Shown here in pieces: positions 229 to 40,417 of a stretch of 64,000 bases of DNA (position 1 is its first letter; the number at the start of each line of letters is the position of its first letter). Source of the stretch: an uncultured Parcubacteria group bacterium (GTDB taxonomy: Bacteria > Patescibacteriota > Patescibacteriia > UBA9934 > CAMTUG01). The translations under genes and the position numbers were made by a program. Under the pieces are notes generated by a model that saw only the letters and a program-made list of their open reading frames with translations, was not told the origin of the DNA and did no database searches. The stretch is taken from positions 23,490-87,489 of the forward strand of contig CAMTUG010000004.1 of the NCBI GenBank assembly GCA_947084965.1, read 5' to 3'.

Positions 229-1512
229 ATGAAGAAGAAAATAGAAAAGCAAAGCAGCGCTGCCAACCTTGAAGAAATCATCAAGCTCAACATCCAGGAA
301 TCACGAAAATCAAAGACGCTCGAAGGCTTGCAGGACTTAGAACGTGCCACCATCAAAGACGTCGCCGACGGTATCATCCGCTACGCTTATCAGGCGTCCG
401 CGTCCGATGTGCACATCGATCCGGACGAAAGCTATATCGTCATCCGTTATCGTATCGACGGCATTTTGCACGACGTCTTAATGCTCCCCAAAAAGGTCCA
501 TCCGATGCTTCTCACCAGGTTCAAAGTTCTTTCTGAACTGCGCACCGACGAACACCTGGCCGCCCAGGACGGACGCTTCCGACTTATTTTTGATGATTTG
601 CCGATTGACGTGCGCGTATCGATCACCCCGACGTATCACGGAGAAAACGCGGTTATGCGTCTGCTCGTCGGTCACGTCAAGGCACTCGCCCTCGAAGAAT
701 TAGGGTTCGCTGACCGCGACTTGGAAAAGGTCCTGGCTAACATCCGTAAATCCTACGGGATGATTTTGGCGACTGGACCGACCGGTTCAGGAAAAACCAC
801 GTCGCTCTACTCTATTCTTCAGCTGTTGAATACCCGCGAGCGTTCGATCATTACGATTGAAGACCCGATCGAATACGCCGTCGGAGGGATCACACAAATT
901 CCGGTCAACGTCCGTACCAACCTAACCTTTGCCCACGGCTTGCGCTCCATCGTTCGCCAAGACCCAAACATCATCATGGTCGGGGAAATTCGTGACGAAG
1001 AAACGGCAGGGGTGGCTGTGAACGCGGCGATGACCGGGCACTTGCTTTTATCGACCCTCCACACCAACGACGCCGCCGTAACCTTGCCGCGCCTGCTCGA
1101 TATGGGGATCGAGCCGTTCTTAATCGCTTCGACGGTCAATATTGCTATTGGTCAGCGTTTGGTGCGCAAACTCTGCACAACATGCGCGACGCACCGCAAA
1201 ATGACAAAAGAAGAGCGGGAGAGCTTAACCACCTTCATCCCTGCCGACGTCTTGGATGAATATGACACGTTCTACGAACCGGTCGGCTGTGAGGCTTGCA
1301 ATCGCACGGGCTACTACGGCCGCATCGGTATTTATGAAGTGCTAGAAATTTCGGAAGAGATTCGTCGGTTGATTATGAAACAGGAAAATGCGGACACGAT
1401 CCGCAAACAGGCGGTGTCTGAAGGGATGACCACGATGATCGTTGATGGAATTAAAAAAGCCTCTTCCGGGATTACATCGATCGCCGAAATTCTTCGCGTG
1501 ATCCACGAGTAA
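229..1512 (+). CDS. pilB: type IV pilus / T2SS assembly ATPase (GspE/PilB family)
   Basis: Walker A GPTGSGKTT, Asp/His boxes, tetracysteine CTTC...CEAC; AGGAGG RBS 8 nt upstream of the ATG. Confidence 0.9.
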   Translation: MKKKIEKQSSAANLEEIIKLNIQESRKSKTLEGLQDLERATIKDVADGIIRYAYQASASDVHIDPDESYIVIRYRIDGILHDVLMLPKKVHPMLLTRFKVLSELRTDEHLAAQDGRFRLIFDDLPIDVRVSITPTYHGENAVMRLLVGHVKALALEELGFADRDLEKVLANIRKSYGMILATGPTGSGKTTSLYSILQLLNTRERSIITIEDPIEYAVGGITQIPVNVRTNLTFAHGLRSIVRQDPNIIMVGEIRDEETAGVAVNAAMTGHLLLSTLHTNDAAVTLPRLLDMGIEPFLIASTVNIAIGQRLVRKLCTTCATHRKMTKEERESLTTFIPADVLDEYDTFYEPVGCEACNRTGYYGRIGIYEVLEISEEIRRLIMKQENADTIRKQAVSEGMTTMIVDGIKKASSGITSIAEILRVIHE

Positions 1513-4947: not shown

Positions 4948-5332
4948 TCAACGAGGATTCACCCTCATTTTGAGCACCATCATCATCTCCACCGTCTTCC
5001 TCCTGATCGGCATCACCACCGCCAATCAGCTGTTTGGTCAGATAGAAAACACGCTCGGCGGAGAAGACTTTTTTCAGGCCAAAATCCTGGCTGAAGGATG
5101 CGCCGACGCCGCTTTGATCGAACTGTCGTACGACAGCGCCTATAACGGAAACGAAATGCGGACGATCAACGGAGCGTCCTGCACGATCCGTCCTGTAACT
5201 ACCAGCGGGCCTACAGCGACGATCGAAACAGAAGCCGAAGTCAACGACCGCATCTATCGACTCCGCGTCGAAGTTTCCAACACCAATCCCCCGATCACCG
5301 TCTCTTCTTGGCAACGAGTGACAACGTTTTAA
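4940..5332 (+). CDS. minor pilin / pseudopilin
   Basis: N-terminus MNNQRGFTLILSTIIISTVFLLIGI; overlaps the upstream gene by 8 nt. Confidence 0.6.
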   Translation: MNNQRGFTLILSTIIISTVFLLIGITTANQLFGQIENTLGGEDFFQAKILAEGCADAALIELSYDSAYNGNEMRTINGASCTIRPVTTSGPTATIETEAEVNDRIYRLRVEVSNTNPPITVSSWQRVTTF

Positions 5333-5379
5333 CTGGACATTTTTTCTTTTTGCTGTACGGTTCCCTTTAAGGAGGTCCC

Positions 5380-5847
5380 ATGCGCGATGCTGTGCTCGTC
5401 TTTCTTCTGCGGCGACGGTCCGTGGCGCTTGGGCGAAAGCTCAAATACATCGTGGCCGGATACCGCACCAGCGCCGGCGGAAAAATCGAACCGGGCGAAA
5501 CACCCGAACAGGCCGCCAAACGTGAAACGAGTGAGGAGGCCGGCGCTGAAACGCACCTTCTGCTGTACCGCGGGGTGGTCGAGATCGAGAACATCGATCA
5601 CTCGGACTGGAACTGTCGCCTGCACCTCTACATCTGCCGCGAATTCGATGGTGAGCCGACGAACAGCGATGAGATCATCGACTGGCAGTGGTACGACATT
5701 GACAACCTGCCATGGGGCGAGATCCGTCCTTCGGACCGCACCTGGCTCGAGGCGATCCTCGTCCACGACGAGATCGTCGCGTTGCGCTGCGTAGTACAGA
5801 ACAATCAGCTCGTGAGCTGTCAGATCCTCGACGGCCCACTTCCATGA
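5380..5847 (+). CDS. NUDIX hydrolase
   Basis: Nudix box GGKIEPGETPEQAAKRETSEEAG; about 65% GC; GGAGG RBS. Confidence 0.75.
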   Translation: MRDAVLVFLLRRRSVALGRKLKYIVAGYRTSAGGKIEPGETPEQAAKRETSEEAGAETHLLLYRGVVEIENIDHSDWNCRLHLYICREFDGEPTNSDEIIDWQWYDIDNLPWGEIRPSDRTWLEAILVHDEIVALRCVVQNNQLVSCQILDGPLP

Positions 5848-6295
5848 GCTCACCCTTCAAGCGCCGGCGCGGCCACTCCCCGCCGGCTTTGAAATTTTTG
5901 ACCGTTTGGTTCTCCTCGGAACAGAAAAATCTCCAACGTATGTTGAAGATTTTTCTGGTGAACCGAAAGCTAGCTTAACCGAATACTTGGAGAAAAATAA
6001 GGAAAAGCTCGTATTACTTCAGTTTAATTACTCTTTGGCGTAAACGTAGTTTTGAAAAGAAACAGCGCACCCACGGAAGTCGGCGGGCACTCACGTGGGT
6101 GGTGAGCTGTCTCCGCCGCGCGTAGGTGCGCGAGCTAGTATTCGTTGGTAGTGGCTCTCCTGCACGGAACCATCGCCCTTCCGACGAAACAGAGAGTGTC
6201 TTCGTACACCACCTCCTGGATTGGTGGCGATGTCTTGATGCGCTCATCTTCAGCCGTGAGGCCGAGCCAGAGCAGGATGATGACGACGAGCTCCA

Positions 6296-6457
6296 TCACG
6301 TCACCATCTTGGAAGTGGCCGAGACGGCCAGCGCTCGATCGAGGAAGACGACCATGAGCGCGAACAGGATCATGGCCGCCAGGTACTCGATAGGGGTGGA
6401 CGCGTCCTGGGGGGAGATGAGCTTCTCCCAGTACGCGCTGAGCGTGTGAAGCATCAT
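6296..6457 (-). CDS. small single-TM membrane protein (53 aa), translationally coupled to the upstream lipoprotein
   Basis: TGATGATG stop/start overlap; AAGGAGG inside the 3' end of the upstream gene; hydrophobic helix IEYLAAMILFALMVVFL. Confidence 0.4.
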   Translation of the reverse strand: MMLHTLSAYWEKLISPQDASTPIEYLAAMILFALMVVFLDRALAVSATSKMVT

Positions 6458-6918
6458 CACTTCACCTCCTTGTCGATCGGGTAGTGGATGATCAGGGCGT
6501 GCCTGGAGTCGGTCGTGGCCAGGAGGTAGTCGCCCGTCGCGTCCACGACCCACTGCGGGTCGGTGACGTGCGAGCGCTGCCAGGTGCCTCGCTCGAAGCG
6601 AAGCTCCTGTCCCACGTGCATGATCTTGACCCGCCCGTCGGACTCGACCTTCCAGTGTGCGTCTGTCCTGGACATCAGGTTGCATGGCTCGGCGTCGTCA
6701 CACCACTGCCGAAGTTCGACATCGCACGGAGCTCCGTCGACGAGCACTTGATGGACAGGGATGTAGGCCTTGGGCTCGTCGGATCCCGTGCAGCCATTGA
6801 GCAGGCCGATGATGGCGCCTCCCGTCGGCAGGATGACGGCCAGGACGAGCAGACCTCCGCCAAAGAAGTGCTTGGCTACTTCACCCCAGTACTCGATTTC
6901 CCACATGATCCTTTCCAT
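6457..6918 (-). CDS. hypothetical lipoprotein
   Basis: Signal peptide with lipobox LLNGC after an internal Met (MERIMWEI...); high GC; start uncertain. Confidence 0.45.
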   Translation of the reverse strand: MERIMWEIEYWGEVAKHFFGGGLLVLAVILPTGGAIIGLLNGCTGSDEPKAYIPVHQVLVDGAPCDVELRQWCDDAEPCNLMSRTDAHWKVESDGRVKIMHVGQELRFERGTWQRSHVTDPQWVVDATGDYLLATTDSRHALIIHYPIDKEVK

Positions 6919-7085
6919 GCTTGCTCCCAGCGAAGATTTCGCTAGAGGGTCGGCTATCCCAGCCGTAGGGTTCGCTCCGAGGGAGACGACAAAGTAAGAT
7001 AACAACAGCGAAGCGTTTTGTCCAGCGTTTTACTGGATTCTTTTGAAGAAATGCTGGATAATGTGAGTAATTTTATCTTAGCAAC

Positions 7086-7862
7086 ATGAAACTCGGGGAA
7101 AAAACACAAATTACCCTTTTGATCGTCGGCTTCGTGGCATTTTTAGCTGTTGTCGTGTGTTTGTTGGCAAATGGCACCCAGCTTTCAGAGGGATTCAGAG
7201 AATCATTGATCGTTGAGTTGATCGGGGCGGGATTTGTGACTCTCTTCGTTTCTCTTGCGATGGCCTTGATCCAGCACCTTTTTGCGGCGAATGTAGAGAA
7301 GATTAGAGCAAAAAGAGAATCTCTAGCATGGATAGAAGAGATCATGGAGCCAGAATTCAAATCCGAATTTGAAAAGGGTGCCACGCCTTGGAACATGCAC
7401 GAGCGAGAGGATGCGGCGTTTTATTTTCACGACTCGCCCATTAACCGCATATACGACCTCATAATGCGACACCATGAAAACATCGTGAAGTGTGCGGGTC
7501 CAAGTGACTCCATGTTTTTGGCGCGTCTTTTGGAGATCAAACGGATTGTTGAAGCAGGTCGTAGTGTTGGCAGTAAAATTGATCTCGATTTGCGAAACAG
7601 AGTACGTTCGTTTAACAAAAATAGAAATGCAAATTCCGCAAATGACGGGTCGTTGTTTGTATACGCAAGAGCAAAGATTTTTTCCAATCTGACCGAAGCG
7701 AAGATTTTGGAGTATGTCGAATATGGCAATGACCAAATCCGCACGGAGTTTATGAAGACGCTGGACGATAACACGACCAACACCTGGCGTGAGAAAATTG
7801 GAATCTACACCGCCTCTCTCAAAGGCGCGCTATACAAAATGGGTTACCGAGCTGACAAGTAA
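7086..7862 (+). CDS. hypothetical two-TM membrane protein with a cytoplasmic domain
   Basis: Two N-terminal TM helices; AT-rich; first gene of the AT-rich island. Confidence 0.5.
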   Translation: MKLGEKTQITLLIVGFVAFLAVVVCLLANGTQLSEGFRESLIVELIGAGFVTLFVSLAMALIQHLFAANVEKIRAKRESLAWIEEIMEPEFKSEFEKGATPWNMHEREDAAFYFHDSPINRIYDLIMRHHENIVKCAGPSDSMFLARLLEIKRIVEAGRSVGSKIDLDLRNRVRSFNKNRNANSANDGSLFVYARAKIFSNLTEAKILEYVEYGNDQIRTEFMKTLDDNTTNTWREKIGIYTASLKGALYKMGYRADK

Positions 7863-7877
7863 ATTAATGTTGATTTT

Positions 7878-8747
7878 TTATTGTCTCTCAATATTTTTTC
7901 TTTCGTGTTCATCGATAGCAAGATAGATCGCGTCAACCGTAATAATTTTCGCCAATCCTAGATGCCCTTCGATCTTTGCCAAATCACCCTGACTCAACCC
8001 AGCGTTCTCGTCCTTTTCTCTATGCAAAAATTTAGTAACGATTCCAAGTAAGTAAGCCTTCTTGATGGGTTTTGTGCCTTCGATATGCATGAACTGTGGT
8101 TTGCAAAAAACTGGTCCACCGCTATTGCCTGGAAAAACTGGAGCATCCAAGTAAATGATGTTTTGTTTTAGGGATTCTGAATCAAGACGAGCTATCAGGC
8201 CACCTCGGCAAATAGCATAATTCTTTACTTCACCACGTAGTCCTAACGGGAACCCCAGGAAGAATACTTCATCACCCGAACAGAGGCCGACCTCTTCGTA
8301 ATCTTGGGAGCGAAGCGCCGTTTCAGTATCAATAATTTCGACGAAATCTATTCCGTTGTCACGCAATACCCTCGTCTGTATCGGGATAACAGCAACATCG
8401 ATTTCATTCGAAGGAAAACTGAAGTTTGCACCATTAGCCCCCGTGTAGAGAGGCAATTGAAAACTTTGAGTCGTTTCTTCCCCGAGCCGATCAAAACGTA
8501 AGAAAATCTCTTTTTTCTGGGAGGATTGATCGATGCCATTTTTGTAAATGACATGTTTTGCGGTCACAAGGTAGGATTTCACCTCAAATCTTGTATCGTC
8601 GATTTTTTCGATGACCTTACTGAAAAGAAAGCCTGTCCCAATCGGCTGAAGTACGCCAAAGGCATCGGGGTAGTCAATTGAAACCACGCACTTTAGGTAT
8701 CCAGGAGGAAGTAGCGCCATATAATAGACAACCCCAACATTTTGCAA
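7878..8747 (-). CDS. trypsin-like (chymotrypsin-fold) serine peptidase
   Basis: Catalytic triad context TAKHV (His), DVAVIP (Asp), GNSGGPVF (Ser). Confidence 0.7.
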   Translation of the reverse strand: MQNVGVVYYMALLPPGYLKCVVSIDYPDAFGVLQPIGTGFLFSKVIEKIDDTRFEVKSYLVTAKHVIYKNGIDQSSQKKEIFLRFDRLGEETTQSFQLPLYTGANGANFSFPSNEIDVAVIPIQTRVLRDNGIDFVEIIDTETALRSQDYEEVGLCSGDEVFFLGFPLGLRGEVKNYAICRGGLIARLDSESLKQNIIYLDAPVFPGNSGGPVFCKPQFMHIEGTKPIKKAYLLGIVTKFLHREKDENAGLSQGDLAKIEGHLGLAKIITVDAIYLAIDEHERKNIERQ

Positions 8748-8774
8748 TAAAATTCAACAATAATCAACACTTGT

Positions 8775-10037
8775 ATGCGTTTTCCAACAGAAGCCTCCCT
8801 CAGCGATTTGAGTCTCGATAAATTTGGGCATCGAGAACTGGCCAAAAACCTTGTAGCAAATGTTTTTTTGGAGATGGAGCTTCCGAACACCTTTGGCATA
8901 TACGGAAATTGGGGAACGGGAAAATCAACCTTCTTGCAGGCAGTCCAAGGGGAACTTACAAACAATGCAGATGCAAGAGACATACTTGCTATCAGATTTG
9001 ATCCGTGGAAATACGAGTACGCTGATCATATTGATCTGTTTACAGCTTTGATAAGTGATTTCAGAGAGCAGGCTAAAATTCCAAAAACAAATGAGGTTTG
9101 GAATGATCTCACAAGCGCAATGCTTGGCATATCAACTTCTATCTTCAAAAAACTGCTCCATAAAGCAAGTGCAGGGATGCTTGATGTGGATGACATGCGC
9201 GCCGAGGCTAATCTGGCCGCTACGGCATTTCCCGAGGATCAATTTGAACAAGCCGATCTGGTTCAACAACTGCGTGGAAAGCTCAACAATCTCATACAGG
9301 TTGCTCTTACGGAGAACACGAAAAAGCGCGTTTGCATCTTCATCGATGATCTTGACCGATGCTCCCCAGAGCATACAGTTACACTTTTGGAAGCGATAAA
9401 AAACTTTCTACTTACCAGCAACGTACTATTCGTTTTTGCACTGGACCGTCGCATCGTTTCTGAGATGATCGAGAAAAAATATGGTCTGCACTCTGGCTAT
9501 GGGGACGAATATCTAACAAAAATTATTCAGTACTCGCTCACACTTCCCGCGCCAACTCATGAAGGTATTTTGAGCGATATCCTTGCTGATCACCTCATTG
9601 AAATGCCGAAGGACACACAGGGTTGGATTATCAGATTTACCAATAGATTCGCGAATGAAACACGAAAATTCAAACAATTGGTTTACCAGTTAATTACGCA
9701 AGCAAAATTGGGAGGCATTGATCTTTCAAAAGACGCTCCGCTTGATACTACAAGTCTATTCTGTGCTATTTATTTGAAGTCTCGTTTTCCAAAACTTTTT
9801 CATGTCAGTCGAAAAGCGGCTCTTGAAAACATTAAAACCTATGGTTCTATGATTTCGGCTGAAACTGATAATAAGCCAGAAAAAGCTCGTGACTTCGCAA
9901 GTCAGTTGGGCATATCGGGGGAAGAGAGAAAAATATTGACTGAATTGTTTATTTTCCAAATGCCAAACAACAAAGGGCTCATGAACGAGAATCGTCATAA
10001 GCTCGAGGAAGCAGGTTTTTCGAGAATGATCGATTAG
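8775..10037 (+). CDS. KAP-family P-loop NTPase
   Basis: KAP-type Walker A GIYGNWGTGKST (GxWGxGKS) and Walker B FIDDLDRC. Confidence 0.75.
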   Translation: MRFPTEASLSDLSLDKFGHRELAKNLVANVFLEMELPNTFGIYGNWGTGKSTFLQAVQGELTNNADARDILAIRFDPWKYEYADHIDLFTALISDFREQAKIPKTNEVWNDLTSAMLGISTSIFKKLLHKASAGMLDVDDMRAEANLAATAFPEDQFEQADLVQQLRGKLNNLIQVALTENTKKRVCIFIDDLDRCSPEHTVTLLEAIKNFLLTSNVLFVFALDRRIVSEMIEKKYGLHSGYGDEYLTKIIQYSLTLPAPTHEGILSDILADHLIEMPKDTQGWIIRFTNRFANETRKFKQLVYQLITQAKLGGIDLSKDAPLDTTSLFCAIYLKSRFPKLFHVSRKAALENIKTYGSMISAETDNKPEKARDFASQLGISGEERKILTELFIFQMPNNKGLMNENRHKLEEAGFSRMID

Positions 10038-10237
10038 TCCTCAGGGCAAATCTTCGCACACCTGTCCGTCGGTGCAGTATTTGAGCTTTGGGAGCTCGTA
10101 TCAGCCTCAGTTACTGCCTCCTGTGGCGCGCCAGAATCTCCTGTGACATGGTCGCAGGCTCCATTCGCCCATAACCCTCGCTTTGCGCTTTCGGCGTCAA
10201 ATTGGGACGTTTCTTAGTCCTGGGGATGTACATAGCA

Positions 10238-10489
10238 CTATGTCTTCATCGCACTGTAAATTGCGTCGCGTAGTTTCTCTTTATCACCGAGCTTTACAGG
10301 GATCTTATGTTTCTCGCCTCCGCTCGTTTCGATAACAACCTGGGCGTGGAGTGGAACGCCAAGTTCGATACTGGAGATGCGATGAATTGGAATAGATTTT
10401 TCTATGAAGAAAACCTTGTAGGAAACATGGGTGGAAAAAACCGTTGTCTTCGTCCCAAGGTAATTCGTTTCAAATAGCGCTTCAGCCAT
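10238..10489 (-). CDS. hypothetical protein (83 aa)
   Basis: ORF only, AT-rich. Confidence 0.3.
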   Translation of the reverse strand: MAEALFETNYLGTKTTVFSTHVSYKVFFIEKSIPIHRISSIELGVPLHAQVVIETSGGEKHKIPVKLGDKEKLRDAIYSAMKT

Positions 10490-10813
10490 ATGTGTTGTTG
10501 TGGTTTTGAATTAGGGCTGGATTTTGAGCAACGCAAAAGGTCGCCCGAGCCAGCGACGATTCTCTTTCGAAAACCGCCTCACGTCCTTTCGGAGCGTGAA
10601 CCACAACAACGAGGGCTGGTCAGACGACCAACAACGTTGTTGTGGATTTATTAGAGCCATGCCCATCATTATCTGATGGGTTTAGGCAATTGTGCTTGTA
10701 TTTTAACGTAAGGCACTGAAAAAGCAAACGCTATAGGCTGAATAAAGCCAAAAAATCTAGCATAAATTGCTTAATAGTGGCAGAATCAATAGGAAAAAGA
10801 ATGAAGAATAAGT

Positions 10814-11491
10814 ATGAAGGATGAGGACTTAGATTTGTCGGCAAAAGCAATAGAGCTTAATCGGCAGCAGTTTGTAGGCACCATTTGTCATTTCGAGGGT
10901 GAAAAAATCGCCCAGTGGCTTCGTGTTAAAAAGTTGGGGATCCCGCAAGAAGGTTTTGTTGATCAACACGCTGAAAACCGTTGGTTGAATCCAGTAGACC
11001 AGAATGTAGAAGAGGTAATGAGGAGACATCATCTTGTTGGGCGCGCTATCAAGGTATTGTTGGGTATTTTCAAACTCACAGATAATTACAGTGGAGCCGT
11101 ACGACATTTCCTACTCCAAAACAAAGTCGGACATATTCCAGGGAATTTTTCCATCGAGTACACGCCCGATAACGGTAAGATTAAAACCGAGTATCATGAC
11201 CTGCCAAAGACAGGAGAGAAGACGCTTGAAAACAAATTACGAGTTGAGGTTTTCAAACATCTGAAACCGAAGACTGTCGCTCGAAGAACAAGAAAAACTG
11301 CAGAGCGGGATAGCCGTGTTACCAGCCTCACGAAGACAAAAAAGAAAGGAACGCAGGTGGAAAGGGATTTTGGCATTGTGGCGGAACTGTATCCCGTGGG
11401 AACAGTGGACGATTTTTCAAAAAAAGCTGATACGAAGCGTGTACAGTTGATAAAAAAAGCCCGTGAAAGAGATAAAAAACGTTACAGTTAA
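10814..11491 (+). CDS. hypothetical protein with a Lys-rich C-terminus
   Basis: ORF followed by an intrinsic terminator. Confidence 0.4.
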   Translation: MKDEDLDLSAKAIELNRQQFVGTICHFEGEKIAQWLRVKKLGIPQEGFVDQHAENRWLNPVDQNVEEVMRRHHLVGRAIKVLLGIFKLTDNYSGAVRHFLLQNKVGHIPGNFSIEYTPDNGKIKTEYHDLPKTGEKTLENKLRVEVFKHLKPKTVARRTRKTAERDSRVTSLTKTKKKGTQVERDFGIVAELYPVGTVDDFSKKADTKRVQLIKKARERDKKRYS

Positions 11492-11525
11492 TTTTCAAAA
11501 TTAGTGTCACCATTCAAGGAGCGCA

Positions 11526-11552
11526 AAGGGGTACCGTCGAGGTACCTTTTAT
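11526..11552 (+). terminator. rho-independent terminator
   Basis: GGTACCgtcgaGGTACC hairpin followed by TTTT. Confidence 0.55.
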
Positions 11553-11929
11553 GTTTGCGCCCGACGCCTCACAACAAACCTCCGAAGATCAGGTCGTCGA
11601 AGCATTCGCTGAGATGTTGTATATGGCTGCGCGTCAGGAGGTAAAAAATAAGTATGAACACAATCCACAATCAGTTTCCGACAAGTAATTTCTACCTTGC
11701 CGCCTATCTGCTTTCGCACGAGATCAATATGATCAACTGCGAACGTGAACATGGCGGAAAGGTTACTTTTGTTTTTTCAGATTCTGAAAATCTACGCAAC
11801 CGCGTGACTGAATTTACATTCGAACGAAATGCGCTCGTGAGTGCATCCTCCTTTGTGAATTCGATCAAGAAGTTGAAATCCCTTTTGTACGACGGGATTT
11901 GATGACAATCAAAGTATAAGAATAACCAT

Positions 11930-12538
11930 ATGGCGGAACGCCGAATGATACGCAAAGATCTTTGTGAGAATGATGCTTTCAATGATCTCACGATGCCCGC
12001 ACAAATTCTCTACATGATGCTGATTCTCCACGGCGATGATGAGGGTTGTTTCAGGGCGGATGCAAAGTACTGGAGTAGAACCGTTTTTTACACAAAGCGC
12101 CAGGGTCCATTTCGTGTAGAGCGAATGCTTGATGAACTGCGAGAAGCGAGACTAATCATCACGGGCGAAACAAAAAATGGTCCCGCTGGCTTCATTCTTG
12201 GGTGGTTTAACATGCAAACTCTCACCGCAAGCAAGAGTAAACCTAGCCAATTTTATGAACTTTTGGTTGCCCATGGAATAACTCCATGTTGGGGAATTCC
12301 TGCAGAAGAGAATGTAAGGAAAGAAAAGCAAAGTGAAGTGAATGAAGGTGGGGTGAGGTCGAATTCGCCAAGTCGTTTTCGAGAAGTTGCAGGTAAACAC
12401 AGGGACGAAAAAATCGCTAGATTACAGGCGGAAAAGAAAGCTGTAATGGAGGGAATGTCTATGGGGGCTATTTCAACTCCTAATGATTTCGATGAAATTA
12501 GCGAATATGCCGAAAATGACGTGCGAGAAGATACCTAA
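11930..12538 (+). CDS. hypothetical protein (202 aa), mobile-element-associated
   Basis: ORF with an AGGAGG-like RBS. Confidence 0.4.
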   Translation: MAERRMIRKDLCENDAFNDLTMPAQILYMMLILHGDDEGCFRADAKYWSRTVFYTKRQGPFRVERMLDELREARLIITGETKNGPAGFILGWFNMQTLTASKSKPSQFYELLVAHGITPCWGIPAEENVRKEKQSEVNEGGVRSNSPSRFREVAGKHRDEKIARLQAEKKAVMEGMSMGAISTPNDFDEISEYAENDVREDT

Positions 12539-13001
12539 GGTTAGCACGCGGTACTTCCGACCGCGCATGAGAGGATCGATTCTCACGGATCAACGCCTTG
12601 CTTCTTTTACTCTAACATCAACGCCCTGCTATTTCGGAGGGCAACGGTATTGGTTCATTTGTACGGCGGATAAAGATGGAGAACCGTGTGGAAAGAGGGC
12701 TGGCGTCTTGTACTTAATAAACGACATATTCGCTTGCCGCCGATGCCACGATTTGGCATACGAGAGCCAGCAAAGGAATCACGTCGGCAGAAGAGCATTT
12801 TGTCGTAAGTATCGAGAAGGAGAAAAAAACATGGAACGATCTTTTATGGAGATGCGAATAAAACAATGGCGAGGGAACCCAACGAAGCGCTATCAGAAAT
12901 GGCTCATGCTCAGCGAGCGGCGCACACGCGATGCATCACGATTTCTGCTTGCAGAAATGTTAGTCATCGGATTCATTAAAAGTCGTCGTAAATCTCGCTG
13001 A
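12483..13001 (+). CDS. hypothetical Cys-rich (zinc-finger-like) protein
   Basis: CxxC motifs (CTADKDGEPCGKR...CRRCHD); start uncertain. Confidence 0.35.
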   Translation: MISMKLANMPKMTCEKIPKVSTRYFRPRMRGSILTDQRLASFTLTSTPCYFGGQRYWFICTADKDGEPCGKRAGVLYLINDIFACRRCHDLAYESQQRNHVGRRAFCRKYREGEKNMERSFMEMRIKQWRGNPTKRYQKWLMLSERRTRDASRFLLAEMLVIGFIKSRRKSR

Positions 13002-13052
13002 AGTATGCAGGAACTTTTCATTTCTCCAGTTGCACGACATAATTCAAATGAT

Positions 13053-14645
13053 ATGGACAAAAAAGCACTTCTCTATCTTCGCGTTTCAACGGACAAACAG
13101 GCCGAAAAAGGTTTCAGCCTGCCAGCTCAAGAAGAGGCGTGTCGTACCTACGCAAAAACGCATGGTTTTTCTGTTGAACATGTTTACCGTGATGAGGGAG
13201 AATCTGCGCGCTCCGACGATCGGCCTCAACTGCAAGAGATGCTCGCTCGTTGCGACGAAGGTGACATTGCCGCGGTTATCGTCTACAAGCTCGATCGCTT
13301 TGCGCGCAACGTTTTCGATCACGTGCGGAATGCCGCTCGCATACGCATGAAGAAGGCCGAACTCCATTCTGTTACAGAAAATATAAGCGGTACACCCGAA
13401 GGAATGATGGTAGAAGCCATCCTTGCTAGCGTAGCGCAATTTTTTAGCGGTAACCTTGCCCGTGATGTACTCAAGGGCATGAACGAGCGAGCCAAACAGG
13501 GCATGTGCAACTCCAAGGCTCCGCCTGGCTACAAAAACATGCGGGAGATCATTAACGAAGATGTTGAGAGAAAATTCGTGATTCCTGACTCCAAAACTAA
13601 GGATTATGTGATTCAGGCGTTTGAAAAGTTCGCGACGGGCGGTTATACGGTGGCCGATCTTTGCGATTGGTTCTTTTCCGTTGGAATGGAGCAAAAAAAG
13701 AACAAAGGCAAGCCTCTCGCTATTTCAATGGTGAGTCGAATGTTGAGCAACAAATTCTACATCGGCATCACGCAATGGAATGGCATTGAGGCGGAAGGAG
13801 TACACGAGCCCATTATTTCCAAAGAACTATTCCAGCGTGTCCAACTTGTACTCAGCGACCGTATCCACGGAAGAAGCAGGAAGCGTAAAAACCTTTTCTT
13901 ATTACGCGGGCTCATGCAATGCGGCGAGTGCGGTGCAAACATCACTTATGAAAAGCAACTCACTTCATCGAAGCGGTTGATACCGTATTACCGTTGTTCA
14001 AAAAGGCAAGATAACCGAAAAGTCGATTGCACCCAATCATACGTAGACGCTAATTTTTTGGAGAAAGAAATTGCAAAAGCCGTAGAAGCCGCTCGTCTCC
14101 CCCGACACATTATTGTAAAAATCGAAAAGAAGCTCGCAGAGATTCACGAGCGGGAACAGGAGTCGGTTACTAGGGAGCGTAAGCAGATTCAAGCAAAAAT
14201 GAATCAGCTCAACGAAAAGGAACGTTCGCTGGTGAACAAGTATCTCGAAAATAAGCTGACCGAGGAAATCTACGAAACGATCCGAGAAGAAATCTCTTCA
14301 GAACGCATAAACTGCAAGGCAAGGCTCGAAGCAAACGAAAGCACGATCCAGGCGGCGATCCGCATCCTGGAACAAGCGGTTACCTTCACGCGCGACCTCC
14401 CAGTCGCCTATAAGCGCGCGCCAGACCCAATCAAGCGACGATTCCTGGCCATTCTCTTCAAAGAGATTGTGGTGAAGGATGGTGGCTTGTATAAGGTTGT
14501 ATTGAATGAGCCGCTCGACTATCTCTGCAAAGAGTTTGCCCAAAATAAAAACCTCCCCGTCAAATTCGACGGAGAAGCTTTTGGTGACCCCAAGGAGAAT
14601 CGAACTCCTATTTGGTGGATGAGAACCACCTGTCCTAACCGTTAG
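13053..14645 (+). CDS. large serine recombinase (integrase)
   Basis: Resolvase N-domain LYLRVSTDKQ with catalytic Ser, recombinase domain, zinc ribbon CGECG; 3' end overlaps the tRNA-Glu. Confidence 0.85.
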   Translation: MDKKALLYLRVSTDKQAEKGFSLPAQEEACRTYAKTHGFSVEHVYRDEGESARSDDRPQLQEMLARCDEGDIAAVIVYKLDRFARNVFDHVRNAARIRMKKAELHSVTENISGTPEGMMVEAILASVAQFFSGNLARDVLKGMNERAKQGMCNSKAPPGYKNMREIINEDVERKFVIPDSKTKDYVIQAFEKFATGGYTVADLCDWFFSVGMEQKKNKGKPLAISMVSRMLSNKFYIGITQWNGIEAEGVHEPIISKELFQRVQLVLSDRIHGRSRKRKNLFLLRGLMQCGECGANITYEKQLTSSKRLIPYYRCSKRQDNRKVDCTQSYVDANFLEKEIAKAVEAARLPRHIIVKIEKKLAEIHEREQESVTRERKQIQAKMNQLNEKERSLVNKYLENKLTEEIYETIREEISSERINCKARLEANESTIQAAIRILEQAVTFTRDLPVAYKRAPDPIKRRFLAILFKEIVVKDGGLYKVVLNEPLDYLCKEFAQNKNLPVKFDGEAFGDPKENRTPIWWMRTTCPNR

Positions 14646-14656
14646 ACGATGGGGCC
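14582..14656 (-). tRNA. tRNA-Glu (anticodon CUC)
   Basis: Cloverleaf folded by hand: acceptor GGCCCCA/TGGGGTC, anticodon loop TTCTCAT, T-loop TTCGATT, encoded CCA. Confidence 0.7.
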
Positions 14657-37267: not shown

Positions 37268-40200
37268 TTAACTACATCCGCTCGTGGCCCCGCAGTTCAA
37301 GCACTTGTAGCAAGCGGCGTTGCGCACCATCATCGATCCGCAGGTGGCGCAGGCTGGAGCGTCGGACTGGTTGTCGAAGGTAGAGGTGTGCGTCACTGTG
37401 GTCGCTTTGGCTGGAGCGTTGGCAGCGAGCGGTTCGGCAAAGATGTTCGCTTGTTGCACTTTTGGTTCATCCGTACCGACAGCGGCGGCGACTTCGGCGG
37501 CCTTCTCAACGACTTCGAAGTTCACGCCTACTTCGCGCTGTTCGTCAGGCGACAAGAACTTGAGCGCCATCCAGCGGAAGATATAATCGACCGTTGACTT
37601 GGCGATACGGATATGTTCGTTGTTGGTGAATCCGCTCGGTTCAAAACGGGTGTGTACGAATTTGTTGACGAGGACATGAAGCGGCACACCGTACTGCAAA
37701 CCGATCGAAACCGAAGTGGCGAAGGAATTCATGAGACCAGAGACGACGGAACCGTCCTTGCTCATGGTGATGAACAACTCGCCTGGCTGCCCATCATCAA
37801 ACAATCCAACGGTGATGTACCCTTCATGTCCACCGATCGAGAACTTGTGGGTGATCGAGCGACGTTCGTCTGGCAAACGGCGGCGGCGCGGAGTGGTATC
37901 GACGACCGCGGCAACCGATTTTGATTTTCCAGATTGATCTTTGTCTTGGCTGGTGGTCAACGGCTGTTGACGCTTGGAACCGTCACGATAAATAGCGACC
38001 GCTTTCAATCCAAGACGCGCCCCTTCCATGTACACCTCGGCAATATCTTCTGGGGTGACGTCGCTCGGCATGTTGACCGTCTTTGAAATCGCGCCAGAAA
38101 CGAACGGTTGCACCGCGGCCATCATCCGCACGTGACCCATGTAGCCGATCGAGCGCGTGCCATTCTTGGCTTTAAACGCGCAATCGAAGATCGGCAAATG
38201 AGCGTCTTGAATATGCGGAGCGCCTTCGATCGTATCTTTTTCATCGATGTACTTCAGAATGTCATCGATCTGTTCCTTGGAATACTGCAGGCGCGCTAGT
38301 GCTTCTGGAACGGTTTGGTTGACGATCTTGACCATTCCACCACCGACCAGCCACTTGTATTTAACTAAGGCAAGATCTGGTTCGATCCCGGTCGTGTCAC
38401 AATCCATAAAGAAGGCGATCGTACCGGTTGGAGCGATAACGGAAATTTGCGAGTTCTTCAAACCGAATTTGTCGCCGTGCTCTACCACCTTCTCCCAGGC
38501 CTGACGGTGGGCAGCTTGCAAATCCGCTGGCACGCCGATGTCGGAAACTTGATACGCAGCGTCGCGGTGCATGCGCATCACTTCCATACACGGCTCGGCG
38601 TTCTTTTTGAATCCGTTAAATGGGCCGGTCTTTTCTGCAATCAAGGCGGACTGATCGTAACATTCGCCAGATAACAACGAGGTGATCGCCGCGCAGAAGT
38701 TACGGGCTTCGTCCGAATCGTAAGCCATGCCGCGCGACATGAGGAGCGCGCCCAAGTTGGCATAACCGATCCCGAGCGGACGATAGTCGTGCGAGTTCTG
38801 TTCAATCGACGGCGTTGGGTAGGAGGAGAATCCAACCGAGATTTCCATCGCCGTGATAACCGTGCGTGACGCTTTGGCGAATGACTCGACGTCAAATTCC
38901 ATCGTCTTTCCGTCTGCACTCGGCTTGCGGAACTTCATCAGGTTAAGCGACGCCAAGTTGCAGGCGGTGTCGTTCAAGAACATGTATTCACTGCACGGGT
39001 TGGAGGCATGGATGCGGTCGGTGTTCTTGCAGGTGTGCCACTTGTTGATCGTGGTGTCGTACTGCACGCCCGGATCGCCGCAGTGCCAGGCCGCTTCGGA
39101 CATCATTTTCATCAGATCGCGCGCTTTGAATTTAACCGATTCTTTGCCGGTCGTTACTTCCTTGGTGACCCATTCGCCGTCGTTCTCAACCGCACGAACG
39201 AATTCATCGGTAATGCGCACCGAGTTGTTGGCGTTCTGGAAATAGATCGAAGAATAGGCCGGGCCATCGATCGAACCGTCGTAGCCGGCGTCCATCAACG
39301 CCCAGGCTTTCTTTTCCTCTTCTGATTTACACTTGATGAATTCCTCAACGTCCGGGTGATCGATATTCAAAATAACCATCTTAGCCGCTCGGCGTGTTTT
39401 GCCGCCGGACTTAATCACACCCGCAAAGGCGTCGAGACCTTTCATGAAACTGATCGGGCCTGATGAGCGACCGTTTGATCCGCCCAAGAATTCTTTGCTC
39501 GAACGCAGCGGCGACAAATTGACCCCTGATCCTGAACCACCTTTAAAAATCATCCCCTCTGTGGTGCACAGGTGCAGAATCGAACGCATGTCATCGCTGA
39601 CCGAATTGATGAAACAGGCCGAGCACTGCGGGTGCGGATTGACCCCCACGTTAAACCAGACCGGCGAGTTAAAGGCCGCCATCTGGTGGACAAGAATATG
39701 AGTCAATTCGTGTTCGTAAATCTCGGCATCCTCGGCTGTTTGGAAATACCCGCCAGCGCGGCCCCAGTTGGACATCGTCACCGCCACGCGCGAAACGAGT
39801 TGTTTGACGCTCGTCTCACGATCAGCTTGGCCAACTTTGCCACGGAAATATTTTTGCACCACGATATTGGTTGCTGTCTGCGACCAAAAGTCTGGAACTT
39901 CAACGTCGGTCTGTTCAAAAATAACGCCGCCCTTTTCGTTGGTAATTTTGGCTGTGCGCTTGACCCAGTTGATCAGGTCGTACGGATGCTTACCCGGAGT
40001 AGTGAAATAACGCTGCCAGGCAAGGCCGTGTCCGTATTTTGGTTCTGTGGAAACCGCGCGAGCATCAAACTTGGCTTGGGCGTACTTTTTCGAAATGTGG
40101 ACGAGGTTGTGATCGATACAGGTCAAGTTGATGACTTCGCGGATCGCCGCCGTCTTCGGAACGGTGTGTCCATCATAGACGCGCTGTAGCCGACCGAGAA

Positions 40201-40417
40201 CCGTTTCGACAATTCGGTCGACCAACGTTTCGTCGCGTGTGCCGGCCGCGGCAAAGGCCTTAGCCACCGAAGCGCGCAACTTATCCTTAGAAAAATCTTC
40301 CTGACGCCCATCATCCTTGATGACAAACTTTAAACTGGTCATGTAGTTCCAAACGGCGTCGACAGCGCCACTGGCTGACTGGGTACCGACCTGCGTGGAT
40401 GGGGCGAAGTTGGACAT
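37268..40417 (-). CDS. nrdJ: class II adenosylcobalamin-dependent ribonucleotide reductase
   Basis: 1049 aa; N-terminal ATP-cone; RNR catalytic core with thiyl-radical Cys region; C-terminal Zn ribbon CATCG...CYKCLNCG. Confidence 0.85.
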   Translation of the reverse strand: MSNFAPSTQVGTQSASGAVDAVWNYMTSLKFVIKDDGRQEDFSKDKLRASVAKAFAAAGTRDETLVDRIVETVLGRLQRVYDGHTVPKTAAIREVINLTCIDHNLVHISKKYAQAKFDARAVSTEPKYGHGLAWQRYFTTPGKHPYDLINWVKRTAKITNEKGGVIFEQTDVEVPDFWSQTATNIVVQKYFRGKVGQADRETSVKQLVSRVAVTMSNWGRAGGYFQTAEDAEIYEHELTHILVHQMAAFNSPVWFNVGVNPHPQCSACFINSVSDDMRSILHLCTTEGMIFKGGSGSGVNLSPLRSSKEFLGGSNGRSSGPISFMKGLDAFAGVIKSGGKTRRAAKMVILNIDHPDVEEFIKCKSEEEKKAWALMDAGYDGSIDGPAYSSIYFQNANNSVRITDEFVRAVENDGEWVTKEVTTGKESVKFKARDLMKMMSEAAWHCGDPGVQYDTTINKWHTCKNTDRIHASNPCSEYMFLNDTACNLASLNLMKFRKPSADGKTMEFDVESFAKASRTVITAMEISVGFSSYPTPSIEQNSHDYRPLGIGYANLGALLMSRGMAYDSDEARNFCAAITSLLSGECYDQSALIAEKTGPFNGFKKNAEPCMEVMRMHRDAAYQVSDIGVPADLQAAHRQAWEKVVEHGDKFGLKNSQISVIAPTGTIAFFMDCDTTGIEPDLALVKYKWLVGGGMVKIVNQTVPEALARLQYSKEQIDDILKYIDEKDTIEGAPHIQDAHLPIFDCAFKAKNGTRSIGYMGHVRMMAAVQPFVSGAISKTVNMPSDVTPEDIAEVYMEGARLGLKAVAIYRDGSKRQQPLTTSQDKDQSGKSKSVAAVVDTTPRRRRLPDERRSITHKFSIGGHEGYITVGLFDDGQPGELFITMSKDGSVVSGLMNSFATSVSIGLQYGVPLHVLVNKFVHTRFEPSGFTNNEHIRIAKSTVDYIFRWMALKFLSPDEQREVGVNFEVVEKAAEVAAAVGTDEPKVQQANIFAEPLAANAPAKATTVTHTSTFDNQSDAPACATCGSMMVRNAACYKCLNCGATSGCS

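What the first reader, a model, noticed from the sequence alone, without database searches (positions are those of the whole stretch)
13053..14656. Serine recombinase gene overlaps the 3' part of tRNA-Glu(CUC): integration junction of a mobile element of about 7.5 kb
The last 62 nt of the large serine recombinase ORF are the 3' portion of a hand-folded tRNA-Glu on the opposite strand. Everything to the left (7000-14600) is AT-rich cargo: hypothetical proteins, a Cys-rich zinc-finger-like protein and the KAP/protease module. This is the signature of an integrative element that inserted into a tRNA gene and restores its 3' end. The distal att repeat was not found by eye, so the far boundary (about 7000, or possibly 5340 if the high-GC NUDIX/lipoprotein block is included) is unresolved.
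Basis: seen in the sequence. Interest (0 to 1): 0.6.

Follow-up and report, generated by a model that had tools for sequence, protein, structure and literature searches.

The report
Serine-integrase island in tRNA-Glu end
An 8.6-kb mobile element sits at the very 3' tip of a tRNA-Glu gene in a probable Patescibacteria genome, and its serine integrase gene runs across the attachment site, so integration swaps the enzyme's conserved C-terminal tail for a peptide read off the tRNA's antisense strand.

Summary
tRNA-Glu(CUC) lies at 14582-14656 (-), and a 546-aa large serine recombinase ORF (13005-14645, +) overlaps it by 64 nt.

The interpretation needs correcting in three ways:
- **How much tRNA the element restores.** It does not carry the overlapped 62 nt. 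attL and attR share only TGGTGA, the antisense of tRNA nt 71-76. The crossover is most likely the GA at 14586-14587 and 5960-5961.
- **Where the far end is.** It lies at 5956-5961, directly after the NUDIX gene's terminator. It is not at about 7000 or 5340. The element is 8,626 bp.
- **Why no long repeat exists.** Serine integrases need none.

The left end continues the integrase reading frame. Once circularised, the ORF would end ...FDGEAFGEPKASLTEYLEKNKEKLVLLQFNYSLA*. This tail is conserved at protein level in eight related elements whose integrases are 42-81% identical. So attP lies inside the integrase gene, and integration exchanges the tail. Whether that exchange regulates anything is inferred.

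The family also carries the orphan LOOT RNA, which looks like a cis-acting leader of the cargo operon. It also carries a DnaD-like replication gene and variable defence-like cargo.

No circular form or empty site was found.

The parts
5922..5957 (.). Host bidirectional terminator hairpin between the NUDIX gene (5380-5847, +) and the original 3' end of tRNA-Glu. It forms the B arm of attL.
   Evidence: Inverted repeat I19, 16 nt arms, 94% complementary; sequence. Each related element has a different A-run/hairpin/T-run directly before TGGTGA.
5956..5961 (+). attL core TGGTGA. The inferred crossover dinucleotide GA is at 5960-5961.
   Evidence: It is the only identity shared with attR. The dyad centre of the reconstructed attP falls on GA, with 9 of 12 pairs against at most 5 for other centres.
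5957..6043 (+). Detached 3' coding segment of the integrase gene, which overlaps the P' arm of attP. In frame with ...FDGEAF it encodes GEPKASLTEYLEKNKEKLVLLQFNYSLA plus a stop.
   Evidence: blastn-conserved block in L002 and L004. Eight homologous tails recovered. Third-codon-position excess 156 vs 81/82; 47% synonymous in this frame vs 10-30% in the other five; no in-frame stops in the six intact copies of that seven-sequence comparison, the seventh (L014) being a decayed junction with an early stop.
6055..6135 (-). Conserved long hairpin followed by UGUUUCUUUU. It is an intrinsic terminator for the leftward cargo genes.
   Evidence: 89% identical to L002 4072-4146. Minus-strand fold -42.5 kcal/mol, z = -4.4. 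Terminator scan hit.
6136..7005 (-). GC-rich cargo: small ORFs of unknown function, some apparently membrane proteins (my reading, not tested).
   Evidence: Lies between attL and the rest of the element. No Pfam, PHROG or PADLOC match. GC 0.57-0.62.
7086..7862 (+). 258-aa protein of unknown function, shared with L002 4815-5627.
   Evidence: blastn 69% over 668 nt. No family match.
7878..8747 (-). Trypsin-like serine protease; defence-candidate cargo.
   Evidence: Pfam Trypsin_2 2.5e-9. PADLOC PDC-S45 1.3e-20.
8775..10037 (+). KAP-family P-loop NTPase; defence-candidate cargo.
   Evidence: Pfam KAP_NTPase 3.2e-36. PADLOC PDC-S20 2.1e-39 and PifA 5.7e-30.
10238..10489 (-). 83-aa ORF, the first gene downstream of the LOOT leader.
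   Evidence: ORF list. An 84-aa ORF occupies the same position in L001, and the reading of its N-terminus as homologous was made by eye. The start codon is preceded by a copy of the 5' strand of LOOT's long stem.
10490..10688 (-). LOOT RNA (RF03000, 10555-10688), plus a conserved small hairpin with CCUUUUGYGUU and the translation-initiation region it can pair with.
   Evidence: Rfam 65.4 bits vs gathering score 46.4, full model matched. Present in 8 of 9 related elements. Co-varying complementarity to the start region.
10814..11491 (+). 225-aa core protein of unknown function, the first gene of the rightward core operon.
   Evidence: A gene of 231-268 aa sits at the same position in L001, L002, L004, L020 and L025.
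11654..11902 (+). DUF5659 protein, a core gene.
   Evidence: Pfam DUF5659 1.5e-11. Present in seven of the eight related elements whose genes were listed, all but L023.
11930..12538 (+). Protein resembling a DnaD-type helicase loader or replication initiator at its N-terminus, a core gene.
   Evidence: phrog_8489 3.7e-8, phrog_1408 8e-5. HTH_36 in the L001 homologue.
12483..13001 (+). Cys-rich 172-aa protein directly upstream of int. Its function is unknown. It could be an accessory or directionality factor, but this is speculation.
   Evidence: Genes of 157-164 aa sit at this position in L001, L002, L003 and L004. No family match.
13005..14645 (+). Large serine recombinase in its integrated form. 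Residues from about 527 onwards (DPKENRTPIWWMRTTCPNR) are encoded by the antisense strand of the host tRNA.
14582..14587 (+). attR core TGGTGA, with crossover GA at 14586-14587 (tRNA nt 72 and 71).
14582..14656 (-). tRNA-Glu(CUC), intact. Nt 1-70 are host DNA. Nt 71-76 are identical in attP and attB.

Best explanation
Window 5962-14587 is an 8.6-kb integrative element mobilised by a large serine recombinase (LSR). The host is probably a Patescibacteria (CPR) bacterium. The element sits at the extreme 3' end of tRNA-Glu(CUC). Recombination most likely occurs at the GA dinucleotide inside a 6-bp identity TGGTGA, which is the antisense of tRNA nt 71-76. The whole tRNA body therefore stays host DNA, and only the discriminator and CCA are replaced by identical bases. 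attP lies inside the 3' end of the integrase gene. In the excised circle the ORF runs through the core into the element's left end and finishes with a conserved 26-31-aa tail (PK[AV][ST]L[TV]EYL...). After integration that tail-coding piece is left 8.6 kb away at attL, and the ORF instead reads 58 nt of tRNA antisense until the TAG in the D-loop. Shown: the boundaries, the 6-bp core, the dyad symmetry of the reconstructed attP, and the in-frame, protein-level conservation of the tail. Inferred: that the circle forms, that both isoforms are made, and that the tail swap biases the enzyme between integration and excision. A further inferred effect is loss of the tRNA's own terminator, which stays at attL. 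tRNA transcription could then run antisense into int.
For: tRNA and LSR confirmed. Five distinct host flanks (window, L001/L015, L002, L004/L009/L013, L016), plus L020, each end in a different terminator hairpin. Each hairpin is followed by TGGTGA and then a conserved element left end. At attR, the integrase-side sequence (gaagcttt) is constant, while the tRNA beyond TGGTGA differs between hosts with compensatory stem changes. In five elements the reconstructed attP has one clear dyad centre on GA, with 9-10 of 12 pairs against at most 6 elsewhere. Tandem junctions read P-arm/TGGTGA/left end of a second element in L020 and L025, and also in L002, where the bases after the core look tRNA-like and so are less clean. 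In L023 the core differs (TGGCAG) but the architecture and the tail are the same. The tail reads in frame with int in eight elements, and the tail of the element whose integrase is 43% identical (P0008, L025) is still about 54% identical to the window's. Differences are biased to the third codon position (156 vs 81/82). They are 47% synonymous in this frame vs 10-30% in the other five. There is no in-frame stop in the six intact copies. A near-identical tail sits behind a different flank in P0122. The core operon includes a DnaD-like replication gene, consistent with an episomal stage.
Against: No contig or protein showing the intact circular junction was found. No unoccupied site from a close relative was recovered. 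The first ~25 nt of the tail-coding segment is also the P' arm, so part of its conservation is DNA-level. The host-side B arm shows little conservation beyond a T-run plus TGGT, and L023 lacks the inner dyad. Nothing here shows that either isoform is made, or that the tail affects activity. The read-through into the tRNA could be incidental.
Confidence: 0.75

Rival explanations
1. Classical tRNA-gene island. attP carries a long copy of the tRNA 3' half, the crossover lies deep in the tRNA, and the displaced fragment at the far end has decayed beyond recognition.
For: The ORF/tRNA overlap covers 64 nt. In L002 the first integrase is followed by 19 nt that look like a tRNA 3' end (TGGTGACCCCGAGGCGAAC) before a second element starts. 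Dehalococcoides ssrA islands with a serine recombinase have a 20-bp repeat and a T-loop crossover (PMC3146451).
Against: No repeat of the tRNA 3' end beyond 6 nt exists in the window or in the other loci. The tRNA T-arm and anticodon-arm sequences differ between hosts in a compensatory way, while the integrase-side arm stays constant. The L020 and L025 junctions carry no tRNA sequence beyond the TGGTGA core. The dyad centre is on GA. The L002 19-mer is equally well explained as the second element's P' arm resembling the tRNA half-site.
Confidence: 0.07
2. The boundaries are as described, but the conserved left-end segment is not translated. Its conservation would reflect DNA function only: the integrase binding site plus a transcription signal. 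The integrase would effectively end near FDGEAFG in both states.
For: The first ~25 nt is the P' arm, with a dyad. No protein with int and tail contiguous was found among 5.8 billion sequences, although only 3 candidates were scored. L014 has a stop at codon 2 and L008/L011 diverge after about 22 codons.
Against: Conservation runs for about 84 nt, well beyond an LSR half-site. Substitutions show a third-position excess and are 47% synonymous in the integrase frame only. The frame is open to a stop at codon 29-33 in every intact copy. The tail of the element whose integrase is 43% identical (P0008, L025) is about 54% identical to the window's.
Confidence: 0.12
3. The element is a fixed, no-longer-mobile remnant, and the ORF/tRNA overlap is a fossil.
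For: No circular form or empty site was recovered. Remnant junctions without an integrase exist elsewhere: L008, L011, L014 and L023 3981-4705.
Against: The integrase ORF is full length with all three domains. The cores are perfect, the tail ORF is intact, and a near-identical left end occurs behind a different flank (P0122). The same integrase protein (P0005) occurs on contigs whose cargo differs: the genes left of LOOT in L006 differ from those in L004 and L005.
Confidence: 0.1

Closest known systems
Phage-type large serine integrases (A118/LI, TP901-1, Bxb1, phiC31) and their simple att sites
   Same: Same three-domain protein. The att sites are short and dyad-symmetric around a non-palindromic central dinucleotide. 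In the window and L023, read by eye, an outer TTCGA-like motif lies about 5 bp closer to the centre in the tRNA half-site (CGAA at +14..+17) than in the P' half-site (+19..+22). From memory, that is the attB/attP offset described for these enzymes.
   Different: The target is the tip of a tRNA gene, and attP lies inside the integrase's own coding sequence, so the protein changes on integration. I know of no characterised serine integrase described that way (memory plus searches; not exhaustive).
Dehalococcoides ssrA genomic islands with the serine recombinase DsiB (McMurdie et al. 2011, PMC3146451)
   Same: A serine recombinase of about 540 aa next to the 3' end of a tRNA-like gene. The att repeat is 'embedded in dsiB'. 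Islands form tandem arrays and carry a conserved integration module plus variable cargo.
   Different: There the repeat is 20 bp, the crossover is placed in the T-loop, and a second small recombinase DsiA is present. Here the identity is 6 bp at the acceptor end, there is no DsiA, and a conserved alternative tail exists. The DsiB paper reports no tail swap.
[quoted passage not shown]
   Same: Serine recombinase elements adjacent to tRNA genes, including tRNA-Glu. The authors proposed that the recombinases recognise the tRNA gene.
   Different: Those are 30-50-kb proviruses. In the passages read, no att sites, crossover point or ORF/att relationship were given.
Integration-dependent immunity of mycobacteriophages such as BPs (PMC3694055)
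   Same: attP lies inside a coding sequence, so the viral and prophage genomes express proteins with different C-termini, and the difference sets protein fate.
   Different: There the split gene is the repressor, the integrase is a tyrosine recombinase, and the removed tail is a proven degradation tag. Here the split gene is the serine integrase itself and the role of the tail is unknown.
SSV-type archaeal tyrosine integrases and the Tn4451/TnpX circle-junction promoter (from memory; the archaeal recombinase review PMC8371274 was listed by a search but not read)
   Same: The element's state (circle or integrated) changes the integrase gene itself: SSV1 int is split by integration, and the Tn4451 circle junction creates the tnpX promoter. 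TnpX and TndX also cross over at GA.
   Different: SSV integrases belong to a different enzyme family, and SSV integration destroys the gene rather than swapping a tail. In Tn4451 the junction affects the promoter, not the coding sequence.

Membership tests
Large serine recombinase / serine integrase | N-terminal resolvase catalytic domain with the serine nucleophile motif | tested here: met
   Pfam Resolvase 1.5e-33, residues 22-166. YLRVSTDKQ is invariant in the alignment. TP901-1 integrase catalytic domain E = 1.1e-14.
Large serine recombinase / serine integrase | Recombinase domain plus zinc-ribbon domain C-terminal to the catalytic domain | tested here: met
   Pfam Recombinase 2.2e-13 and Zn_ribbon_recom 3.1e-13. 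A118 integrase C-terminal domain E = 6e-9 over residues 238-417.
Large serine recombinase / serine integrase | Short att sites with imperfect dyad symmetry around a 2-bp crossover, and no long direct repeats | tested here: met
   6-bp identity only. Unique dyad centre on GA in 5 reconstructed attP sites.
Large serine recombinase / serine integrase | Catalyses attP x attB recombination | not testable with these tools
   No circle junction or empty site found in the collections.
Classical tRNA-gene genomic island (Islander signature) | Intact tRNA gene plus a displaced tRNA fragment as a direct repeat at the far end | tested here: not met
   No repeat of the 19- or 27-nt tRNA 3' end with up to 3 mismatches. 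Only TGGTGA is shared.
Classical tRNA-gene genomic island (Islander signature) | Tyrosine-family integrase | tested here: not met
   The only recombinase in the element is serine-family.
Dehalococcoides ssrA-GI (DsiB) type | 20-bp repeat with T-loop crossover, and a DsiA small recombinase partner | tested here: not met
   6-bp core at the acceptor end. No second resolvase-domain gene in 5962-14587.
LOOT RNA (Rfam RF03000) | Score above the gathering threshold against the covariance model over its full length | tested here: met
   65.4 bits vs 46.4, model positions 1-121. 56-74 bits in eight related loci.
Integration-dependent switch (attP inside a gene, isoform change) | attP core within a coding sequence, so the two states encode different C-termini | tested here: met
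   In-frame conserved continuation at attL.
Integration-dependent switch (attP inside a gene, isoform change) | The isoform difference changes protein stability or activity | not testable with these tools
   Needs experiments.

The most novel reading that the evidence does not exclude
A widespread clade of large serine integrases targets the 3' tips of tRNA genes (Glu, Met and Ile seen here) and carries attP inside its own coding sequence. Integration and excision would then toggle the enzyme between two C-terminal isoforms. That would be a built-in state sensor contributing to directionality or stability control, something serine integrases are otherwise thought to get only from separate directionality factors. 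In the same CPR elements, the orphan LOOT RNA would be a cis-acting riboswitch-like leader that gates translation of the defence/cargo operon.
Probability: 0.3. Interest if true: 0.8.

Novelty: new variant of a known kind. Interest (0 to 1): 0.62.

Why it matters
There are four reasons.

- **Mapping islands.** tRNA-gene islands are routinely found by looking for a displaced tRNA fragment and a tyrosine integrase. [quoted passage not shown] Elements like this one have only a 6-bp identity, so such methods miss them, and a GC-based boundary misplaces their ends by a kilobase.
- **Directionality.** Serine integrases are major genome-engineering tools, and control of their direction is an active question. 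A natural family whose C-terminus is rewritten by the recombination reaction itself gives a directly testable hypothesis for state-dependent control.
- **New targets.** The family also supplies integrases aimed at near-universal tRNA sequence.
- **LOOT RNA.** The family gives the orphan LOOT RNA a genomic home, in mobile elements of uncultured Patescibacteria, and a concrete mechanism to test.

Tried and rejected
- **Long att repeat.** Searched the window for the 27-mer and 19-mer of the tRNA 3' end with up to 3 mismatches, and for TGGTGACC. Nothing turned up near 5300-11000. A generic repeat search gave only chance-level pairs.
- **Circular form.** An exact degenerate attP pattern found nothing in viral or metagenome contigs. 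A protein search with the C-terminus plus tail scored only 3 candidates and found no full-length tailed integrase. L008 and L011 show a contiguous P-arm-like/P' junction but have no integrase upstream, so they are remnants, not circles.
- **Empty site.** Exact look-ups of the window's integrase and NUDIX proteins returned no contigs. The genome-collection scan with the left-end motif returned only unrelated matches.
- **Early T-loop idea.** I first thought the crossover was in the T-loop, about 19 nt in, because of the L002 junction. I dropped this after finding the attL junctions, the L020 and L025 junctions and the dyad centre.
- **Block B (6055-6135).** It looked like a possible new RNA but folds as a plain terminator.
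- **GC-rich ORF 6457-7005.** It is not homologous to the gene at the same position in L002.
- **L007.** This viral hit to the left-end motif is a chance match inside an unrelated ORF.
- **Distant relative L027.** Its attL was not found within 10 kb.
- **Viral contigs.** They hold only distant relatives of the integrase, at most 31% identity.
- **Structure prediction.** I did not try to model the tailed isoform, because chimeric sequences are not accepted.
Full report
**1. Observation.**
ARAGORN calls tRNA-Glu(ctc) at 14582-14656 on the minus strand, and Rfam's tRNA model scores it 58.6 bits. The gene encodes its own CCA: the plus strand starts TGGTGACCCC.

The ORF 13005-14645 (+) is 546 aa. 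It has Resolvase, Recombinase and Zn_ribbon_recom domains and matches the solved TP901-1 and A118 serine integrases. It overlaps the tRNA by 64 nt, counting the stop codon.

The low-GC block from 7000 to about 14500 is real.

**2. The overlap is a family trait.**
Close and distant homologues of the integrase (81% down to about 30% identity) mostly end in peptides typical of translated tRNA antisense, such as GDPTGNRTPI, TGFEPAT, GLEPTTRGL and RIRTDD. By motif I counted at least 27 of the 39 sequences read.

At DNA level the integrase ORF ends inside a tRNA gene in these loci:
- tRNA-Glu(CUC): L001, L004-L006 and L025, and the second element's integrase in L002.
- tRNA-Glu(UUC): L023 and L024, and the second element's integrase in L020.
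- tRNA-Met: L027.
- tRNA-Ile: the predicted provirus L030.

**3. The real left end.**
blastn of the island against the related loci showed an ~80-nt block at 5956-6035. It is conserved in L002 and L004, well to the left of the GC shift.

A pattern search then gave attL junctions in the window (5956), L001 (571), L002 (2746), L004 (1872), L016 and L020 (4165). In each, a different A-run/hairpin/T-run is followed by TGGTGA and then the conserved block. That hairpin is what the natural terminator after a tRNA gene would look like.

In the window the hairpin is 5922-5957, immediately after the NUDIX gene 5380-5847. At attR, the integrase-side arm (...ggagaagctttTGGTGA) is constant. The tRNA beyond TGGTGA differs between hosts, with compensatory changes in the T and anticodon stems.

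So attL and attR share only TGGTGA. The element spans 5962-14587, which is 8,626 bp. The high-GC block 5962-7005 is cargo, and NUDIX is host.

**4. Crossover.**
Joining the integrase-side arm to the left end gives ...TTCGACggagaAGCTTTTGGT-GA-ACCGAAAGCTagcttaaCCGAAT.... Scanning every possible centre gives one clear dyad on GA in five elements: 9-10 of 12 pairs, against at most 6 for any other centre.

GA is non-palindromic, as directional recombination by a serine integrase requires. It corresponds to tRNA nt 72 and 71.

In the window and L023, read by eye, an outer TTCGA-like motif sits about 5 bp closer to the centre in the tRNA half-site, where it is the T-loop, than in the P' half-site (sequences). 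From memory, this matches the attB/attP offset described for these enzymes. It is a short motif, so I treat it as suggestive only.

Tandem arrays support the same core. L020 and L025 read integrase arm/TGGTGA/left end of another element. L002 does too, but there the next 13 nt resemble the tRNA. L023 has the same architecture with the core TGGCAG.

**5. attP lies inside the integrase gene.**
Read in the integrase frame, the left ends encode the following tails:

| Locus | Tail |
|---|---|
| window | GEPKASLTEYLEKNKEKLVLLQFNYSLA* |
| L004 | GEPKATLTEYLEKNKEKLVLMRFDYTCV* |
| L001 | GERKATLTEYLEKNVEKLALLRFSFGEVAAAI* |
| L002 | ...FGEAPVAA* |
| L016 | ...FGEVAVAT* |
| L020 | GEPKASLTEYLLKNKEKLLLLRFNFDSLAIVV* |
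| L023 | GSPKVTLVEYLQQMPLQPNFIPFGLVEVGE* |
| L025 | GDPKVSLVEYLRKMDVEKLGLLWGNFIPVPA* |

Across seven gap-free sequences:
- Pairwise differences fall 81/82/156 on codon positions 1/2/3.
- Differing codons are 47% synonymous in this frame, against 10-30% in the other five frames.
- The frame has no stop in the six intact copies.

The L025 tail is about 54% identical to the window's, although its integrase (P0008) is only 43% identical. The segment is therefore under protein-level selection in the integrase frame. That makes sense only if the two arms are joined, in the circle or in tandem arrays.

Integration replaces this tail with DPKENRTPIWWMRTTCPNR, which is dictated by the tRNA and ends at the D-loop TAG. 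Two unrelated serine recombinases in the tandem arrays also read through the same core, in another frame.

**6. What the element is.**
The conserved core, shared across most of the loci, reads from left to right: LOOT RNA (-), a 225-268-aa protein, a ~45-aa ORF, DUF5659, a DnaD-like replication initiator, a Cys-rich ~160-aa protein, and the integrase.

Cargo to the left varies between loci:
- Window: KAP NTPase plus trypsin-like protease, which match the PADLOC candidates PDC-S20/PifA and PDC-S45.
- Elsewhere: HEPN_AbiU2, HNH, SNase, SAVED, DUF4145.

No capsid or conjugation genes were seen. It looks like a small, possibly replicative, mobilisable or satellite-like defence island.

The host's NrdJ is 65-72% identical to proteins named Patescibacteria, Uhrbacteria and Parcubacteria. 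L020's integrase (P0007) is also named as from a Patescibacteria MAG.

**7. Mechanism.**
Shown:
- The boundaries and the 6-bp core.
- The dyad centre.
- The intact tRNA.
- The conserved in-frame tail.
- Tandem accretion at one tRNA.

Inferred:
- The circle exists and replicates.
- The tailed isoform is the integration-competent or differently stable form.
- The tRNA-tailed isoform differs in activity or stability.
- The tRNA's terminator is left at attL, so tRNA transcription could run antisense into int and dampen it. Only weak terminator-like sites lie on that strand within int.

I put about 0.85 on the anatomy, 0.6 on the tail being translated and functional, and 0.3 on a regulatory switch.

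**8. Comparison with what is known.**
- The Islander paper says only tyrosine integrases were known to target tRNA genes (PMC4383910).
- Dehalococcoides ssrA islands use a ~540-aa serine recombinase with a 20-bp repeat 'embedded in dsiB' and a T-loop crossover (PMC3146451).
- Thermotogota proviruses next to tRNA-Glu carry serine recombinases.
- Mycobacteriophage integration-dependent immunity places attP inside the repressor gene to change its C-terminus (PMC3694055).

This case combines these ideas in a way I did not find described: the serine integrase's own tail is exchanged. The literature searches were limited.

**9. LOOT.**
RF03000 hits at 56-74 bits occur in the window and in eight related loci. 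The hit is always on the minus strand, starts about 10-14 nt after a -10-like box, and lies upstream of the first leftward gene.

In all six elements examined, 9-11 nt of the 5' strand of LOOT's long stem recur exactly just before the start codon or overlapping it, 56-68 nt downstream of LOOT. The sequence differs from element to element.

Duplexes between an element's own 3' strand and its own start region are the strongest. They fold at -12.7 to -20.4 kcal/mol, against -3.6 to -13.9 for mismatched pairs, apart from L002 and L023, which share the sequence.

A conserved small hairpin plus CCUUUUGYGUU lies between LOOT and the start codon. This points to a cis-acting leader with alternative pairing rather than, or as well as, the trans sRNA that Rfam lists. 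A DNA-level operator triplet remains an alternative.

**10. Verdict.**
The finding is real and more interesting than stated. Its key mechanistic claim, that the element restores the tRNA 3' half, is wrong, and so are both proposed boundaries. The tail swap and the LOOT link are new leads, supported here only by comparative sequence evidence.

Noticed in passing
window 10490-10688 (-); L001 6717-6913, L002 7452-7651, L004 6385-6578, L020 7848-8039, L023 8300-8490: The LOOT RNA (RF03000), an orphan motif known from metagenomes, is a conserved core part of this element family. The 5' strand of its long stem is repeated exactly (9-11 nt, a different sequence in each element) at the start codon of the next gene downstream. 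The 3' strand could therefore pair either inside LOOT or with the translation start. A conserved hairpin plus U-run lies in between. This looks like a cis-regulatory leader of the cargo operon.
   Followed up: partly
L002 11557-15296; L020 11527-15771; L023 3981-4705; L025 1-30: tRNA-Glu is a tandem-insertion hotspot. Elements with unrelated serine recombinases (559 aa and 506 aa) sit between the first element and the tRNA and use the same TGGTGA core. Their ORFs also read through the core, in a different frame. L023 holds a ~0.7-kb remnant with an integrase 3' fragment.
   Followed up: partly
L027 11502-11578 (tRNA-Met); L030 11482-11558 (tRNA-Ile); proteins P0012-P0040: Integrases only 27-40% identical, from Actinobacteria, Thermoleophilia, several CPR groups, an Aenigmarchaeota archaeon and a predicted provirus, also end inside tRNA genes or in tRNA-antisense-like peptides. 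A large clade of serine integrases may therefore target tRNA genes.
   Followed up: partly
window 6055-6135 (-); L002 4072-4146: An 81-nt GC-rich block, 89% identical between two elements whose neighbouring genes are unrelated. It folds as a long hairpin plus U-run (z = -4.4), so it is a conserved terminator at the left cargo boundary. In L002 a two-gene cassette (DUF5680, DUF4145) sits between it and attL.
   Followed up: yes
window 10067-10222: This non-coding stretch between the KAP NTPase gene and the 83-aa gene is 77-81% identical to part of the SNase-domain gene of L001 (5681-5836) and L002 (5906-6061). It is probably a leftover from cargo replacement.
   Followed up: no
L008 2430-2560; L011 2516-2640; L014 about 1380-1500 (-): Junctions in which about 20 nt of integrase-arm-like sequence (tttgacggagaagctattggt) run straight into the tail-coding block, but with an altered core (GGTAGA or GGTAAA) and no integrase upstream. 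L014 has core GGGTAA with an early stop. These are decayed att-like remnants.
   Followed up: partly
protein P0122 (50 aa, Logan contig of 4,390 nt): An ORF called at another attL has a tail almost identical to the window's (GEPKASLTEYLEKNKEKLVLLQFNYSLA, with the stop read as Q). It follows a different upstream flank, so a near-identical element appears to sit in another context.
   Followed up: no
window 37268-40417 (-) and the whole window: The host's B12-dependent ribonucleotide reductase is 65-72% identical to proteins named Patescibacteria, Uhrbacteria or Parcubacteria. The window therefore probably comes from a CPR bacterium.
   Followed up: partly
L003 1120-2700 and downstream: The 80%-identical integrase P0004 ends GEPSRDATNEYIAR* and has no tRNA downstream. 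It is followed by phage-like genes: an S24 peptidase, a methylase, a terminase and a second serine recombinase. The arms at its junction are not symmetric, so it may be a hybrid junction with a prophage.
   Followed up: no
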